Of a stretch of DNA of 60,996 bases, positions 8,001 to 57,908 are shown one piece after another. The position numbers and the translations under genes were made by a program. The first letter of the stretch is position 1. Each line of letters begins with the position of its first letter. A model generated the notes under the pieces. It was not told the DNA's origin, did no database searches, and saw only the letters and a program-made list of their open reading frames with translations. The DNA comes from Candidatus Omnitrophota bacterium (GTDB lineage: Bacteria > Omnitrophota > Gorgyraeia > Gygaellales > Profunditerraquicolaceae): assembly GCA_028710405.1 (NCBI GenBank), contig JAQTUD010000001.1:1-60996 (forward strand). The letters run 5' to 3'.

Positions 8001-8612
8001 GAAATTCCATATTATTCTTTCTGCCGCTATTTTACTATCAATTACCCTACCAGAAGCCTCCTCCAGGGAGATCATTTTAATATCCATTCCGCAAGGCCGG
8101 ATCAATTCAAAATTTTTTAAGTCGTTTTTTTCTATATTAACACTTAATCCGTGAAAGGTTATCCAATTCCTTATAGCTATGCCGATAGAAGCGATCTTGC
8201 GCTGGCCTATCCAGGCGCCGGTAAATCCCACACGCTGGCGCGCCTCTACCCCGAAATCCGCCAGAAAACCTATGATCGCGCTCTCCATCTTCCTTAAGAA
8301 CCAATGTATATCTTTTTTGAGGTAACGTAGGTCAAGAACAGGATAAAGGGTCAACTGTCCCGGCCCGTGATACGTTATATCTCCTCCCCGCTCTAACGCG
8401 TATACCCTTATGCCTTTGGCCTTTAATTCTTCCGCCGAAACCAGAAGATTATTTTTATTTGCTGACCTGCCTAAGGTAACCACCGGATTATGCCGGCAGA
8501 GGATCAGGGCGCCGCAAGTTTTGCCATTTTTGACGCGGCCGAATATTTCTTTTTGGAAATCGTAGGCTTTCTGAAAATCAATTAACCCTAAATCAAATAC
8601 TTCGGGCTTCAT
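7914..8612 (-). CDS. lipB: lipoyl(octanoyl) transferase
   Basis: 232 aa. Has RGGDITYHGPGQL, RKIASIG and RPCG motifs. The last ~26 codons and the stop lie inside repeat copy A. Confidence 0.9.
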   Translation of the reverse strand: MKPEVFDLGLIDFQKAYDFQKEIFGRVKNGKTCGALILCRHNPVVTLGRSANKNNLLVSAEELKAKGIRVYALERGGDITYHGPGQLTLYPVLDLRYLKKDIHWFLRKMESAIIGFLADFGVEARQRVGFTGAWIGQRKIASIGIAIRNWITFHGLSVNIEKNDLKNFELIRPCGMDIKMISLEEASGRVIDSKIAAERIIWNFRRTLDNPVLINNRQGFNSRNNLLTLKCS

Positions 8613-32358: not shown

Positions 32359-34458
32359 TTAGAAACTTTTTCTAGTAGCTCCTGCGCTATTAAAACCGGC
32401 AATTATTTTGTCTGCTATATGTGAAGGCACTTCGGAGTAAAACGAAGGCTCCATTGTATAGGATGCACGGCCTTGTGTCAATGATCTTATTGAGTTGGCA
32501 TAATTAAACACTTCCGATAGAGGAACATAAGCCCTGATGGACCTGATGTTTGCTTTGGTGTTCAGCGATACAATCTTTGCCCGCCGGGAATTTAAATCAC
32601 CGATCACAGCGCCCATGTGCTCCTCGGGCATCACTACTTCTATATCCATGATCGGCTCAAGCAGAATACAGTCGCCTTTTCTTAAAGCGTCATTCAACGC
32701 TATGGACGCGGCCATCTTAAAAGCCATCTCTGAAGAATCTACCTCGTGAAAAGAACCATCCACCAGAGTAACCTTGATATCCGTAACCGGATAGCCTGAC
32801 AATACGCCGCTGCGCGCGGCACCCAGGATACCTTCTCTTACCGAAGGAATAAACTCGCGGGGGATAGACCCGCTCTTGATCTTGTCTATAAATTCAATAC
32901 CTTTACCCGGCATTTCCTGGGGCTCCGCTTCAATGACTACGTGGCCGTATTGGCCGTGCCCGCCTGACTGCTGGATGAATTTTCCAACGGCGTCAACTTT
33001 CTTGGTGAGTGTTTCCCTATATGCTACCTGCGGCATGCCAACTTGGGCCTCCACATTAAACTCGCGCATCATCCGGTCAATAATAATCTCAAGATGCAAC
33101 TGCCCCATCCCGGAAATGATTGTCTCTCCGGTTTCGTTATTATAATGCACTCGAAATGACGGGTCTTCTTCGGTCAATTTATGCAGGGCCATCCCCAGTT
33201 TCTCCTGGTCAAATTTTGTTTTTGGTTCAATAGCCTGCTGTATGACCGGTTCGGGGAAACGCATCGCCTCAATTAAAATAGGGTTATTTTCCGTGCAGAG
33301 GGTATCGCCGGTCTTGGTAGACTTCAACCCAACTACCGCGGCTATATCCCCGGTATGGATAAAATCAATGATCTCTTGACGGTTGGCGTGCATACGTACA
33401 AGCTTAGCCACTTTCTCCCTGGTCTTGCGTGAGGCATTATAGACTTCCGTCCCAGATTTTAAAGTTCCGGAATAAACCCGCACATAATGAATCTTACCGA
33501 CGTAAGGGTCGGTCATGATCTTAAAGCATAACCCGCAAAAAGGCGCCTTATCGGAGCCGGCGATCTCTTCATATTCCTCTGTTTCAGGATTTATGCCTTT
33601 GATCGGAGGCAGATCCTGGGGAGAAGGAAGATAATCGCAGACCGCGTCCAATAATAGTTGTATACCTTTATTCTTTAAAGATGAACCGCAAAGCACAGGC
33701 ACGAACTTATTTTTAACACAGGCGCGGCGAATAGCCGCCTTCATTTCATCTGTGCTTAACGGCTGGTTGTGCACGAATTTGTCCATTGCCAAGTCGTCGG
33801 CTTCCGCTAATTTTTCCAAAAGCATATCCCTATATTTATTTACCTCCGGCATCTGGTCCTGGGGGACCTCCTGGACTTTCGGCTCCAGGCTGGCATCTTC
33901 ACTATAGGTGATTAATTTCTTATCCAGGATATCAATGATCCCGATAAACCCTTCCGCGGTAAAATACGGCATCTGGATTGCCGCGGCGTTGGCGCCTAAT
34001 CTTTTATGCATCTGGTCCAGGGTATCCAGAAAATTCGCGCCTACCCGGTCTAATTTATTCACAAAGGCAATACGCGGAACATTATAACGGTCCGCCTGCC
34101 TCCAGACTGTCTCTGACTGCGGTTCTACCCCGCCTACCCCGCAGAAGACTACTACCGCCCCATCCAAGACCTTCAACGACCTCTCTACCTCGACGGTAAA
34201 ATCTACGTGTCCCGGGGTATCAATGATATTAATATGAGTATCGCGCCAAATGCTTGTAGTGCAGGCAGCGGTAATAGTAATACCCCTCTCCTGCTCCTGG
34301 ACCATCCAGTCCATTACTGCCGTACCTTCATCTACGGTGCCGATCTTGTAAGTCTTTCCCGTATAATAAAGGATGCGCTCGGAAGTCGTGGTCTTTCCGG
34401 CGTCTATATGGGCGATTACCCCGATATTCCTGATTTTGTCTAACGGTACTTTTCGCAT
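32359..34458 (-). CDS. fusA: translation elongation factor G
   Basis: AHIDAGKTT and DTPGH motifs. The start was set at ATG 34458 ([13 protein letters not shown]...). The ORF-track start at 34470 adds MCSF, which is encoded by the conserved end of repeat copy B. The choice of start is uncertain. Confidence 0.95.
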
Positions 34459-34582
34459 AAATGAGCACATAACTTACGAACACGAAGTGTGAGTAAGTTA
34501 TTGTGCGAATTAATCCCGAAGCCTGCGGCAAAAGTTTCTTTAATCTTGTTTCTGAAGCTTTTGCCGTGCTTAGGCAAGGGAT
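34459..34582. repeat. intergenic structured repeat, copy B (rpsG-fusA spacer)
   Basis: AAATGAGCAC, hairpin 34465-34508, TGCGAATTAATCCCG, then a long imperfect hairpin closed by ATCCC/GGGAT. About 110 of 125 positions are identical to copy C by hand alignment. Confidence 0.85.
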
Positions 34583-45915: not shown

Positions 45916-45926
45916 ATTACTATAGA

Positions 45927-46076
45927 CTATTTAATTTCTTTATGGGGGGTGTGTTTATGACAATACTTGCAAAACTTACCCAGTTCTAACCTGTCCTGGT
46001 GCTTTTTTTTATTCTTCTTAGTAGTATAATTCCTGTTTTTACAGACCGTGCATTCTAATGTAATGATTTCGCGCAT
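45927..46076 (-). CDS. rpmG: 50S ribosomal protein L33 (Cys4 zinc form)
   Basis: Not in the ORF track. Hand translation gives [49 protein letters not shown] followed by a stop. Confidence 0.92.
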
Positions 46077-46099
46077 ATGGCTTTGATTTCTTTAAACTA

Positions 46100-53911: not shown

Positions 53912-54202
53912 TTAAGCGGATGGGCTTTGCGGTTTCTGCAGATAAGCCACGCAGCTCTTCTCTATTTCTATCTTCACGTTGTCATCTATCCTCAAAAGCA
54001 CGGTCTTTTCTTTGACCCCGACTATCGTGCCGTGGATCCCGCCTGTAGTGATTATTTCATCATTCTTATTTAGGCCGGTGAGCATCTTCTGATGCTCCTT
54101 CTCTTTCTGTTTCTGCGGACGGATAAGCAGAAAGTAGAAAATAATAAAGATCAGGATTAAAGGAAACATATTTATCAATGGATTAACCGCTTGTTGTGGC
54201 AT
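53912..54202 (-). CDS. yajC: preprotein translocase subunit YajC
   Basis: 96 aa, with one TM helix followed by ...KMLTGLNKNDEIITTGGIHGTIV. Confidence 0.9.
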   Translation of the reverse strand: MPQQAVNPLINMFPLILIFIIFYFLLIRPQKQKEKEHQKMLTGLNKNDEIITTGGIHGTIVGVKEKTVLLRIDDNVKIEIEKSCVAYLQKPQSPSA

Positions 54203-54213
54203 TTTGACCTCCT

Positions 54214-54339
54214 AAATGAGCACTTGACTTACGAACACGATAGTGTGAGTAAGTCAATGTGCGAATTTATCCCGCAGCCTTTCGGTAAAAGTTCCTTTAA
54301 TCTTGTTTATGGAACTTTTGCCGTGTTTAGGCAAGGGAC
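54214..54339. repeat. intergenic structured repeat, copy C (rpsP-yajC spacer)
   Basis: AAATGAGCAC, hairpin GCACTTGACTTAC..GTAAGTCAATGTGC, TGCGAATTTATCCCG, then a long hairpin closed by TCCC/GGGA. It lies immediately 5' of the yajC Shine-Dalgarno sequence on the coding strand. Confidence 0.85.
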
Positions 54340-57754: not shown

Positions 57755-57767
57755 TATCCCCTCCTTT

Positions 57768-57908
57768 AAATGAGCAGACCCTTTACATTGGGGATACCCA
57801 ATGTAAAGGGTAGCCCCGCAGGGGCGTCTGCGAATTTATCCCGAGCCTGCGTAAGTTCCTTGCTTTATTAAACAAAGCGGCAATGGAACAAGCGCTTAGG
57901 CGAGGGAT
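57768..57908. repeat. intergenic structured repeat, copy D (hisA-lipoprotein spacer; same framework, different hairpin cargo)
   Basis: AAATGAGCAG, outer stem GCAGAC/GTCTGC enclosing two unrelated hairpins, TGCGAATTTATCCCG, then a long hairpin closed by ATCCC/GGGAT, with CTTAGGCGAGGGAT at the end. Confidence 0.8.

What the first reader, a model, noticed from the sequence alone, without database searches (positions are those of the whole stretch)
54214..54339. Unrecognised modular structured repeat family placed directly against ribosome-binding sites (reference copy C; other copies at 34459-34582, 57768-57908 and 7900-8000)
- Four intergenic spacers between unrelated gene pairs carry the same framework: rpsP/yajC, rpsG/fusA, hisA/lipoprotein and lipB/lipoyl-domain.
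- Read on the plus strand the framework is AAATGAGC(A/G)(C/G), hairpin 1, TGCGAATT(T/A)ATCCCG, a long imperfect hairpin 2, then (C/T)TTAGGC(A/G)AGGGA.
- Copies B and C match at roughly 110 of 125 positions by my hand alignment. That is far too similar for independent spacers.
- Several differences are compensatory. In hairpin 1, ATAA..TTAT in B becomes TTGA..TCAA in C, and GCGC..GCGC in A becomes GCAC..GTGC in B and C.
- All copies share one orientation. Each ends within 0-4 nt of the SD or start codon of the next minus-strand gene.
- I do not recognise this as any described RNA family, REP/BIME, BOX, ERIC or Correia element.
- Candidate roles are a processing, stability or translation-control module in very long polycistronic mRNAs, a cis-antisense RNA, or a non-autonomous mobile palindromic element.
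Basis: seen in the sequence. Interest (0 to 1): 0.8.

Follow-up and report, generated by a model that had tools for sequence, protein, structure and literature searches.

The report
Mobile two-hairpin repeats of Omnitrophota
The four look-alike spacers are copies of a small (about 70-210 nt) two-hairpin DNA repeat that has spread through genomes of the uncultivated phylum Omnitrophota and sits just in front of gene starts; it is an undescribed family of a familiar kind of small mobile element, not a gene-specific regulatory RNA.

Summary
All four copies exist in one orientation (7898-7994, 34458-34582, 54213-54338, 57767-57908), and shuffles give 0 such matches.

- **Anatomy:** hairpin 1 (T-N-AAT-GA-GC...GC-GA-ATT-N'-A), a linker, then a variable hairpin 2 closed by TCCC(G)...(C)GGGA. 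Both hairpins show covariation.
- **Not described:** Rfam has no match. I found no paper describing it.
- **Distribution:** one DNA pattern hit at least 118 stretches in species-representative genomes, nearly all Candidatus Omnitrophota.
- **Dispersed, not syntenic:**
  - Nearest relatives have empty orthologous spacers, with the stop codon next to the Shine-Dalgarno (SD) sequence.
  - Filled/empty pairs, nested insertions, inverted doublets and tandem arrays all occur.
  - Some copies sit in tRNA D- and T-loops.
  - 88% of copies have no flanking duplication.
- **Placement:** neighbouring genes are unrelated housekeeping genes. The "alpha" end lies 0-15 nt from the downstream SD or start codon. 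It is antisense to the operon in 67 cases and sense in 14.
- **Best reading:** a new REP/BIME/MITE-like non-autonomous mobile palindromic family. The mobilising enzyme is unknown.
- **Effect on mRNA:** any role in stability, processing or translation start is inferred, not shown.

The parts
54213..54338 (+). Copy C, whole element, between rpsP (S16) and yajC. As defined (AATGAGC to GGGA) it is antisense to both genes.
   Evidence: (76.4 bits).
54213..54269 (+). Copy C hairpin 1 (alpha type): TAAAT-GA-GCAC...GTGC-GA-ATTTA. It has a second purine-purine internal loop (ACGAAC / GTGAGT).
   Evidence: Fold. Covariation on 80 family members. Internal-loop tally.
54268..54338 (+). Copy C hairpin 2: ATCCCG...GGCAAGGGA, a long imperfect stem with a GAA/AA-type internal loop.
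   Evidence: Folds. Class I hairpin 2 covariation.
54200..54213 (-). yajC Shine-Dalgarno AGGAGG (54208-54213) and start codon (54200-54202). The SD overlaps the element by 1 nt and is unpaired in the predicted mRNA fold.
34458..34582 (+). Copy B, whole element, between rpsG (S7) and fusA (EF-G). Its first base (T34458) is the complement of the A of the fusA ATG (34456-34458). No SD is present.
   Evidence: (75.5 bits). The site is empty in the nearest relative L202, which has a 17-nt spacer.
57767..57908 (+). Copy D, whole element, between a hisA-like gene and a peptidoglycan-binding protein gene. The framework is conserved, and hairpin 1 is replaced by a branched pair of hairpins.
   Evidence: (36.7 bits). 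The same spacer is filled in L127, L119 and L138 and empty in at least 13 relatives.
7898..7994 (+). Copy A: alpha hairpin 1 (7898-7954) plus a different, shorter hairpin 2 (ACCCTTGAC...GTCAAGGGT). It abuts the SD (CCTCC 7892-7896) of the lipoyl-domain gene. The LipB-like ORF reads into it.
   Evidence: (68.6 bits).
45917..46099 (-). Element-free reference site: the tRNA-Thr / rpmG / tRNA-Trp spacer. It carries family members in relatives L132, L136 and L141.

Best explanation
The four spacers carry copies of a non-autonomous, modular palindromic mobile element family confined, as far as seen, to Candidatus Omnitrophota.

**Unit and forms**
- A unit is hairpin 1, a short linker, then hairpin 2. 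Hairpin 1 is about 57 nt with two purine-purine internal loops and comes in an alpha type (TNAATGAGC) and a beta type (TAAGTGAGG). Hairpin 2 is 12-150 nt and closed by TCCC(G)/(C)GGGA.
- Units occur as singlets, as alpha-hairpin2-beta inverted doublets, as hairpin-1-only or hairpin-2-only forms, and as tandem arrays.

**Insertion behaviour**
- Copies insert precisely and usually without a target duplication.
- They go into short intercistronic spacers and into loops of hairpin-forming DNA such as tRNA D- and T-loops.
- Placement is polar. The alpha end lands directly 5' of the SD or start codon of the downstream gene, so the operon mRNA carries the pyrimidine-loop strand.

**Shown:** family membership, base-paired structure, dispersal, presence/absence polymorphism, polarity, and lack of gene specificity.

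**Inferred**
- Movement uses a single-strand hairpin-recognising enzyme supplied in trans (a REP/RAYT-like or IS200/IS605-like logic). No such enzyme was found.
- Once transcribed, the two stable hairpins leave the SD free. They act as passive insulators or stabilisers between cistrons and sometimes donate a stop codon or the A of an ATG.
For: **Real family with base-paired structure**
- Hairpin 1: 90.7% of cells paired against 78% in shuffles and about 30% with slid partners. 225 double-change cells against 69 in shuffles. The base before AATGAGC covaries with N of GCGAATTNAT (UA 37, AU 21, CG 13).
- Hairpin 2 class I: 9 pairs show double changes.

**Distribution**
- At least 118 stretches in species-representative genomes, nearly all Omnitrophota.
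- The model finds 172 hairpin-1 hits in those loci.
- No match in plasmids or phages. Viral contigs gave only 3 chance-like hits.

**Not syntenic**
- 18 hits in 813 kb of SecD-syntenic loci, at different spacers.
- The rpsP-yajC spacer is empty in the nearest relatives.
- The rpsG-fusA spacer is empty in L202 (RpsG 95% identical) and in the P0014 and P0021 groups. L074 (RpsG about 77% identical) is filled at the same position.

**Filled/empty pairs and complex forms**
- Pairs: L127 against L125 at two sites, and L141 against L126 and L121.
- A 57-nt nested insert separates L197 from L122, whose flanks are 94-96% identical.
- Inverted doublets and tandem arrays.

**Flanks**
- 88% of copies have no flanking repeat.
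- 12% have long repeats that end exactly at the element's 5' end, mostly at tRNA genes.

**Neighbours**
- Neighbouring genes are unrelated housekeeping genes.

**Polarity**
- Antisense 67 against sense 14.
- In roomy spacers the start side is tight in 17 cases and the stop side in 6.
- The alpha end faces the gene start in about 12 of 19 doublets, the beta end in 1-2.

**No promoter or terminator signals** in or beside copies B, C and D; copy A was not scanned.
Against: - No transposase or any other recurrent partner gene was found in 1.69 Mb of element-bearing sequence.
- No autonomous parent element with the same ends was seen.
- The tRNA-associated copies have an odd architecture: partial gene, element, 6-18 nt more of the gene, a spacer, then the intact gene. 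No known transposition chemistry explains it.
- The framework is conserved in nearly all of at least 118 matching stretches from species-representative genomes of the phylum, and the alpha end has strong start-proximal polarity. Both could instead reflect selection for a host function.
- The window and L074 carry the element at exactly the same position on the fusA start codon. Their hairpin 1 sequences differ by compensatory changes, which could mean long-term maintenance.
- Ascertainment bias: most copies were collected with a pattern that fixes AATGAGC and GCGAATT.ATCCCG. The invariance of those columns is therefore by construction.
Confidence: 0.72

Rival explanations
1. A host cis-acting RNA module. 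The hairpins are kept because, in polycistronic mRNA, they direct processing (RNase III, E or Y), protect the ends of cistrons, or set up translation initiation just 3' of hairpin 1. Mobility is only how the module was distributed. On this reading, cleavage after the hairpin could make short-leader or leaderless mRNAs.
For: - The alpha end is 0-15 nt from the SD or ATG even where the spacer has room elsewhere.
- Doublets are oriented alpha-to-start about 12 to 1-2.
- The SD is unpaired in all four window folds.
- In about 8 copies the element's last A is the A of the start codon and no SD is present. Examples are window B and L074.
- The elements are tolerated inside essential ribosomal protein operons.
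- The framework and the GA/GA loops are conserved across the phylum.
Against: - Orthologous spacers in close relatives are simply empty.
- There is no gene-family specificity.
- On the transcribed strand the conserved loops are U/C-U/C mismatches, and that strand folds slightly less well.
- Copies also lie in tRNA loops, in an intron and in both orientations.
- No expression data are available.
Confidence: 0.2
2. Independently transcribed small antisense RNAs. The purine-loop (+) strand would be the functional RNA, pairing with the RBS region of the adjacent gene.
For: - In the window the + strand folds clearly better (for example -59.4 against -47.2 kcal/mol for C).
- All internal loops are purine-purine on that strand.
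- Hairpin 2 has more G-U than A-C cells on that strand, 16 against 5.
Against: - Across the family the difference is small: hairpin 1 -21.8 against -20.0 kcal/mol, hairpin 2 -24.4 against -23.2.
- Hairpin 1 wobble counts go the other way, 15 against 25.
- There is no promoter-like site upstream and no terminator downstream of copies B, C and D; copy A was not scanned.
- The element overlaps the SD by at most 1 nt, so complementarity to the RBS would need read-in transcription.
- 14 copies lie in the sense orientation, and most tRNA-associated copies are sense to the tRNA.
Confidence: 0.04
3. A retroposed (SINE-like) element. The mRNA-sense RNA ending in GCUCAUUNA(A)n would be copied into nicked targets, giving a precise 3' junction, variable 5' ends and variable-length target duplications.
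For: - The junction at the hairpin-1 end is exact, while the other end varies.
- Hairpin-1-only copies look like 5' truncations (L150, L136).
- The flanking repeats vary in length from 12 to more than 38 nt.
- The flank after the hairpin-1 end is often A-rich.
Against: - 88% of copies have no flanking repeat.
- Where repeats exist, the element sits inside the first repeat copy rather than between the two.
- Hairpin-2-only copies exist.
- Symmetric inverted doublets are common.
- No reverse transcriptase was seen among the neighbours that were annotated; no dedicated search was made.
Confidence: 0.04

Closest known systems
REP / BIME elements of enterobacteria and pseudomonads (REP-associated tyrosine transposase system; PMC3733652, PMC3116915)
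   Same: - High-copy imperfect palindromes in intergenic, co-transcribed spacers.
- Two related unit types (here alpha and beta) occur in alternating orientation joined by linker modules, like the Y/Z units and linkers of BIMEs.
- Singlets and inverted doublets both occur, as with REPINs.
- No target duplication.
   Different: - Units are larger: about 57 nt for hairpin 1 and 70-213 nt for the whole element, against 20-40 nt.
- There is no GTAG or CGTC tag.
- Placement is mainly just upstream of gene starts, not downstream of coding regions.
- The sequence framework is shared across a phylum rather than a species or genus.
- No RAYT gene was found.
ERIC/IRU and Correia (NEMIS) elements (from my own knowledge of De Gregorio, Di Nocera and colleagues' work; not re-read here)
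   Same: - Imperfect palindromes of about 100-150 bp.
- Inserted in transcribed intergenic regions, often very close to start codons.
- They fold in the mRNA and can change stability or processing in an orientation-dependent way.
   Different: - ERIC and Correia elements have terminal inverted repeats and duplicate a TA target. This family shows no TA duplication and no fixed-length duplication.
- The taxa are unrelated.
- No sequence comparison with ERIC or Correia was run here.
IS200/IS605-derived palindrome-associated elements (PATEs) and their single-strand 'peel and paste' transposition (PMC10055086 for the family)
   Same: - Subterminal imperfect hairpins.
- No target duplication.
- Strand and orientation bias.
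- Precise junctions.
   Different: - No conserved tetra- or pentanucleotide flanks one end.
- The two hairpins are unlike each other.
- No TnpA, TnpB or omega-RNA-like match was seen.
- The biased strand is the opposite of what lagging-template insertion would predict, if the purine-loop strand is the active one.
Very small nested hairpin repeats of cyanobacteria (SDRs, Elhai et al. 2008; recalled from memory and only cited in PMC3116915, not read here)
   Same: - Small hairpin elements with no known transposase.
- They insert into loops of other hairpins and nest in one another.
   Different: - SDRs are about 21-27 nt.
- The present units are larger and composite, and they have a conserved framework.

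Membership tests
Any Rfam 15 RNA family | Covariance-model score at or above the family's gathering score | tested here: not met
   Only two tRNAs pass in the whole window. On copies C and D at E<=10 the best hits are 16-20 bits against gathering scores of 70-100, and they are microRNA or snoRNA noise.
Tagged REP (GTAG/CGTC super-families, PMC3733652) | A 20-40 bp palindromic unit | tested here: not met
   Hairpin 1 is about 57 nt. Whole elements are 70-213 nt with a median of 114.
Tagged REP (GTAG/CGTC super-families, PMC3733652) | An unpaired GTAG or CGTC motif at one end | tested here: not met
   Each tag, or its complement, occurs in at most 7 of 124 copies within 10 nt of either end, and never in the linker.
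REPIN / RAYT system (PMC3116915) | Two inverted repeat units separated by a short spacer | tested here: met
   17 or more alpha-hairpin2-beta inverted doublets of 130-257 nt. Most copies, however, are singlets that carry hairpin 2.
REPIN / RAYT system (PMC3116915) | A RAYT (Y1 HUH transposase) gene in the genome, typically flanked by the repeats | tested here: inconclusive
   There is no tblastn or HUH...Y motif hit in the 1.69 Mb held.
MITE (IS-derived miniature inverted-repeat element) | Terminal inverted repeats | tested here: inconclusive
   Doublets end in inverted alpha/beta hairpin-1 units. Singlets, the commonest form, have unlike ends.
MITE (IS-derived miniature inverted-repeat element) | A short target-site duplication of fixed length | tested here: not met
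   88% of copies have no flanking repeat above control level. The remainder have repeats of 12 to more than 38 nt with variable length. Filled/empty pairs show no clean duplication.
MITE (IS-derived miniature inverted-repeat element) | A parent insertion sequence with the same ends and a transposase gene | tested here: not met
   No alpha...beta pair encloses a transposase-like ORF. The only widely spaced pairs enclose ABC-transporter or ribosomal protein genes.
IS200/IS605-type PATE | Insertion 3' of a conserved tetra- or pentanucleotide, with no duplication | tested here: inconclusive
   The lack of duplication is met. The bases before the element vary (CAATT, GGATAG, TAGCT, GATTT, CCTCCT and others).
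Kink-turn RNA motif | A 3-nt bulge followed by tandem sheared G.A/A.G pairs | tested here: not met
   Tandem GA/GA is present, in all 80 aligned copies by construction, and also in beta and variant copies. The loop is symmetric and has no 3-nt bulge.
Gene-specific cis-regulatory leader (riboswitch or ribosomal-protein leader) | Conserved association with one gene family or pathway | tested here: not met
   Downstream genes include YajC, EF-G, DnaK, Rho, PFK, RRF, S9, L11, S8, L22, MiaB-like and others.

The most novel reading that the evidence does not exclude
The family may be more than selfish DNA: a phylum-wide portable cistron boundary.

- Its alpha hairpin would be placed directionally right at translation starts. 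A conserved Omnitrophota protein or RNase would recognise it through the tandem mismatch loops.
- Cleavage after the hairpin would yield short-leader or leaderless mRNAs. This would fit copies such as fusA, where the element supplies the A of the ATG and no SD exists.
- Alternatively, or in addition, it may move by an undescribed mechanism that targets loops of hairpin-forming DNA. That mechanism would leave a partial duplicate of the interrupted gene.
Probability: 0.2. Interest if true: 0.75.

Novelty: new member of a known kind. Interest (0 to 1): 0.45.

Why it matters
- Omnitrophota are uncultivated, often ultra-small bacteria with compact genomes and long operons. A repeat present at roughly one copy per 15-45 kb, sitting inside ribosomal protein operons and tRNA genes, affects gene calling. 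It creates false start and stop codons and extended ORFs, and it can break assemblies.
- The family offers a phylum-specific marker sequence.
- It gives a tractable case for asking how small hairpin elements choose sites next to ribosome-binding sites, and whether hosts co-opt them to segment polycistronic mRNAs.
- The tRNA-loop insertions with partial gene duplication hint at an insertion or repair pathway that has not been described.

Tried and rejected
- **Known RNA family.** Rfam was searched at gathering scores on the whole window and at E<=10 on copies C and D. Nothing matched.
- **Strand from folding.** The window copies suggested the + strand. Across 107-128 copies the difference is only 1-2 kcal/mol, and wobble counts cancel out (hairpin 1: 15 against 25; hairpin 2: 16 against 5).
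- **Partner gene.**
  - All-against-all clustering of 781 neighbouring ORFs, followed by Pfam, found only large housekeeping families.
  - tblastn with RayT- and IS200-like queries plus an HUH...Y regex found nothing.
  - The element-dense loci L081, L115 and L055 turned out to be ribosomal or ordinary operons.
- **Promoter or terminator function.** No consensus sites lie in or beside copies B, C and D; copy A was not scanned.
- **Plasmid, phage or viral origin.** No blastn hits in plasmids or phages. Three viral-contig pattern hits lack the hairpin.
- **Simple target-site duplication.** Rejected.
- **IS91-like GTTC/CTTG targets.** These fit only the T-loop cases (inspection of the sequences).
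- **TA or TTAA duplication.** Rejected because the terminal T-N...N'-A bases are inverted complements, not direct repeats.
- **Exact-protein look-ups** for the window's own YajC, S12 and S16 found nothing on record.
- **RNAalifold** on mixed hairpin-2 classes gave no consensus. Class I alone, with a structure I wrote by hand, did show covariation.
- **Literature searches** found no description of the family.
Full report

Yes. The framework AATGAGC-N34-62-GCGAATTNANCCC occurs four times in the window, all on the + strand. It occurred in none of 100 dinucleotide-preserving shuffles.

A covariance model of hairpin 1, built from relatives and run with filters off, finds the same four sites and nothing else (76.4, 75.5, 68.6 and 36.7 bits).

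Copies B and C share 111 of 127 aligned positions. Copy A shares hairpin 1 with them but has another hairpin 2. Copy D keeps the framework motifs around a different, branched hairpin 1.

All genes in the window are on the minus strand. Pfam confirms the flanking pairs as S16/YajC and S7/EF-G. It also confirms a His_biosynth protein next to a peptidoglycan-binding protein, and a LipB-like ligase next to a lipoyl-domain protein.

Each copy touches the translation start of the downstream minus-strand gene:
- In C the element overlaps AGGAGG by one base.
- In A and D it ends 1-2 nt from the SD.
- In B its last base, in mRNA sense, is the A of the fusA ATG, and there is no SD.

**2. Anatomy**

I collected 132 pattern matches and aligned 80 hairpin-1 sequences of standard length. 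Read on the window's + strand, the element has three parts:
- **Hairpin 1:** T-N-A-A-T / G-A / G-C-N-N / 8-9 bp A+T-rich stem / purine-rich internal loop / 3-4 bp apical stem. It returns through a 1-3 nt 3' bulge to N-N-G-C / G-A / A-T-T-N'-A.
- **Linker:** a short stretch overlapping ATCCC.
- **Hairpin 2:** closed by TCCC(G)...(C)GGGA(T).

Covariation for hairpin 1 is strong:
- 90.7% of cells are paired, against 78% in column shuffles and about 30% when partners are slid.
- There are 225 double-change cells, against 69 in shuffles.
- The base just before AATGAGC covaries with N of GCGAATTNAT (UA 37, AU 21, CG 13).

Hairpin 2 is 12-148 nt long with a median of 53. Its commonest class also shows covariation, with 9 pairs carrying double changes.

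All unpaired positions inside the helices are purines on this strand: GA/GA, GGA/GAC or GAA/TGA, and GAA/AA.

A second hairpin-1 type (beta, TAAGTGAGGAC...GTCCGAACTTA) keeps the GA/GA loop while the neighbouring pair changes from A-T to G-C.

Caveat: my collecting pattern fixes AATGAGC and GCGAATT.ATCCCG, so the invariance of those columns is partly by construction. Variants found by other routes (L150, L131, L136) keep GA/GA as well.

**3. Where else it occurs**

- Nearly all are labelled Candidatus Omnitrophota or Omnitrophica. Some carry 'uncultured Planctomycetia' labels on metagenome-assembled bins. Three loci with other taxon labels (L049, L076, L113) are chance matches without the hairpin; the fourth excluded locus, L101 (labelled Omnitrophota), matched by accident within a degraded copy.
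- The model finds 172 hairpin-1 copies in those loci.
- Plasmid and phage collections have nothing. Viral contigs gave three matches that lack the structure.
- Rfam has no family for it, and I found no paper describing it.

**4. It is dispersed and has moved**

- *Not syntenic.* I fetched 80 metagenome loci syntenic with the window's secD region, with SecD 43-83% identical. Only 18 hairpin-1 copies occur in 813 kb, at differing spacers.
- *rpsP-yajC spacer (copy C).* It is empty in the nearest relatives, where the stop codon runs straight into AAAGGAGG (L119, L125, L127, L129, L146).
- *hisA-downstream spacer (copy D).* It is filled in L127, L119 and L138, with different forms, and empty in at least 13 others.
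- *rpsG-fusA spacer (copy B).*
  - Empty in L202, whose RpsG is 95% identical and whose spacer is 17 nt. Also empty in two further lineages.
  - Occupied by an unrelated palindrome in a fourth lineage.
  - Filled at exactly the same position in the distant L074.
- *Filled/empty pairs.* L127 against L125 gives inserts of 129 and 92 nt. L141 against L126 and L121 gives a 114-nt beta element between rpmG and tRNA-Trp, which supplies a new TGA stop for rpmG.
- *Nesting.* L197 differs from L122, whose flanks are 94-96% identical, by a 57-nt double hairpin nested inside hairpin 1.
- *Forms.* Elements occur as singlets, as hairpin-1-only and hairpin-2-only forms, as alpha-hairpin2-beta inverted doublets, and as tandem arrays (L102, L012, L033, L044, L078).
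- *Neighbours.* Neighbouring genes are unrelated housekeeping genes. In L081 three doublets sit between cistrons of the S10/spc ribosomal operon.

**5. Flanks**

- 88% of copies have no flanking direct repeat above control level.
- 12% have repeats of 12 to more than 38 nt whose upstream copy ends exactly at the element's first base. Controls gave 0% at that score.
- Ten of these repeat-flanked copies lie at tRNA genes. The insertion point is in the D-loop when the element is sense to the tRNA, and in the T-loop when it is antisense.
- The layout at tRNA genes is: a partial tRNA gene, the element, the next 6-18 nt of the tRNA, an unrelated spacer of 11-35 nt, then the intact tRNA.
- This is not a classical target-site duplication, and I could not explain it.
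- Among all copies flanked by protein genes, 67 are antisense and 14 sense. At tRNA genes 7 of 10 copies are sense. This suggests the orientation bias is not simply set by the direction of replication.

**6. Placement and polarity**

- *Orientation.* Relative to flanking ORFs (a crude greedy ORF call), the element as defined is antisense on both sides in 67 cases and sense in 14.
- *What follows the element.* In mRNA sense the element ends in GCUCAUUNA. It is then followed by:
  - an SD within 8 nt in 49 of 127 copies;
  - often by A-rich sequence and an ATG with no SD;
  - in about 8 copies by TG, so that the element's last A completes the start codon.
- *Roomy spacers.* In spacers with at least 60 nt to spare, the start side is tight (20 nt or less) in 17 cases, the stop side in 6, and neither in 15 (binomial p = 0.03).
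- *Doublets.* The alpha end faces the downstream gene start in about 12 of 19, and the beta end in 1-2.
- *Interpretation.* Filling a short spacer does not fully explain the contact with ribosome-binding sites. Either insertion is directional towards purine-rich, start-proximal sequence, or other placements are selected against.
- *Fold.* In the predicted mRNA fold the SD stays unpaired.

**7. Which strand matters?**

- In the window the + strand folds much better.
- Across the family the gap is small: hairpin 1 averages -21.8 against -20.0 kcal/mol, and hairpin 2 -24.4 against -23.2.
- Wobble evidence cancels. Hairpin 1 has 15 G-U-type cells against 25 A-C-type. Hairpin 2 class I has 16 against 5.
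- The one consistent asymmetry is that mismatches are purine-purine on the + strand.
- The sigma-70 and terminator scans found no sites in or beside copies B, C and D; copy A was not scanned.
- GC skew shows the minus strand is the G-rich strand. This fits genes running co-directionally with replication, but coding-strand purine bias confounds it.

**8. What moves it?**

Unknown.
- No recurrent neighbour gene was found.
- No Y1 transposase appeared in the 1.69 Mb held.
- No alpha...beta pair encloses a transposase.

**9. Best explanation and rivals**

*Best (0.72).* A non-autonomous, modular palindromic mobile element family, in kind like REP/BIME, REPIN or MITE.
- Shown: precise insertion, usually without duplication; a preference for start-proximal intercistronic positions and hairpin loops; dispersal across Omnitrophota.
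- Inferred: a hairpin-recognising single-strand enzyme acting in trans, and passive effects on mRNA. Those effects would be two stable hairpins that insulate cistrons, with occasional donation of stop codons or the A of an ATG.

*Rivals.*
- A host-selected RNA module for processing, stability or initiation (0.2; not exclusive with mobility).
- Antisense small RNAs (0.04).
- A retroposed SINE-like element (0.04).

**10. Comparison with known systems**

- **REP/BIME.** The family behaves most like BIMEs: two unit types in alternating orientation with linker modules, plus singlets and inverted doublets. It fails REP membership on size and on the GTAG/CGTC tag (definitions in PMC3733652). It also sits upstream of starts, not downstream of genes.
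- **MITE.** It fails on fixed-length target duplication and on the existence of a parent insertion sequence.
- **ERIC and Correia.** It resembles them in sitting next to RBSs within transcripts but lacks their TA duplication. This comparison rests on my own knowledge.
- **IS200/IS605-derived elements.** It shares the lack of duplication and the hairpin ends, but no conserved flanking tetranucleotide or TnpA was seen.
- **Kink-turn.** It is not one, because the GA/GA loop is symmetric.

**11. Verdict**

In kind, however, it is a new member of the well-known class of small palindromic intergenic repeats.

Three features lift it above the ordinary:
- a sequence framework shared across the phylum;
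- strict alpha-end polarity towards translation starts, including copies that complete a start codon;
- unexplained insertions into tRNA loops with a partial duplication of the gene.

Interest 0.45.

Noticed in passing
window 7914-8612 (-): The catalytic domain of the LipB-like ORF ends at residue 202 of 232. The last 30 or so codons read through hairpin 2 of copy A, and the stop codon (7914-7916) lies inside hairpin 1. The element therefore seems to have replaced the native C-terminus and stop. The ORF finder's start for the downstream lipoyl-domain gene (7908-7910) is also inside the element. The real start is probably 7884-7886.
   Followed up: partly
window 34456-34470 (-); L074 5250-5260: The fusA start codon is formed by the element's terminal A plus TG, with no Shine-Dalgarno sequence. 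This holds in the window and in the distant relative L074. The nearest relative, L202, has no element and one extra codon (MNRKV against MRKV).
   Followed up: partly
window 45917-46099 (-): A short rpmG (L33) gene lies between tRNA-Thr and tRNA-Trp. It is under 60 aa and so missing from the ORF list. Its flanks are element-free here but carry family members in L132, L136 and L141. In L141 the element supplies the rpmG stop codon.
   Followed up: yes
L035 113-445 (-): A tRNA gene is interrupted in its anticodon loop by a group I intron (RF00028, 68.5 bits). A hairpin-1-like module sits at the intron's 5' side, in the sense orientation. A second element with a partial tRNA copy lies just upstream.
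   Followed up: partly
L005, L012, L036, L068, L086, L089, L093, L097, L100 (tRNA genes): These elements are inserted in D-loops or T-loops of a partial pseudo-copy of the tRNA gene. The next 6-18 nt of the tRNA follow, then an unrelated spacer, then the intact tRNA. This is not a simple target-site duplication, and the mechanism is unexplained.
   Followed up: partly
L197 8761-8815 against L122 and L065: A 57-nt double hairpin (TCCTACGC...GGATCTCG) is nested in hairpin 1 between AATTCG and CAC. It is absent from L122, whose flanks are 94-96% identical (L065 is the same sequence as L122), and TCG is repeated at the junctions. It belongs to a second, smaller hairpin element family that is evidently recently active.
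   Followed up: no
L197/L122 about 5900-6000; L086 and L034 flanks; L210-L217 rpsG-fusA spacer: Other unrelated palindromic repeat families occupy the same kinds of spacers in relatives. Examples are GGGACGGTTCTC...GAGAACCGTCCC, GTCCCTCG...CGAGGGAC and GGGACTCTCCCC...GGGGACTGTCCC.
   Followed up: no
L081 1-8000; L055 300-2600: Ribosomal protein operons carry several elements between cistrons without obvious disruption. L081 is the S10/spc operon. L055 carries them at the nusG-rplK and rplA-rplJ junctions.
   Followed up: partly
window 1-60996: Every called gene, including both tRNAs, is on the minus strand. GC skew of the + strand is uniformly negative (-0.09 to -0.14).
   Followed up: no
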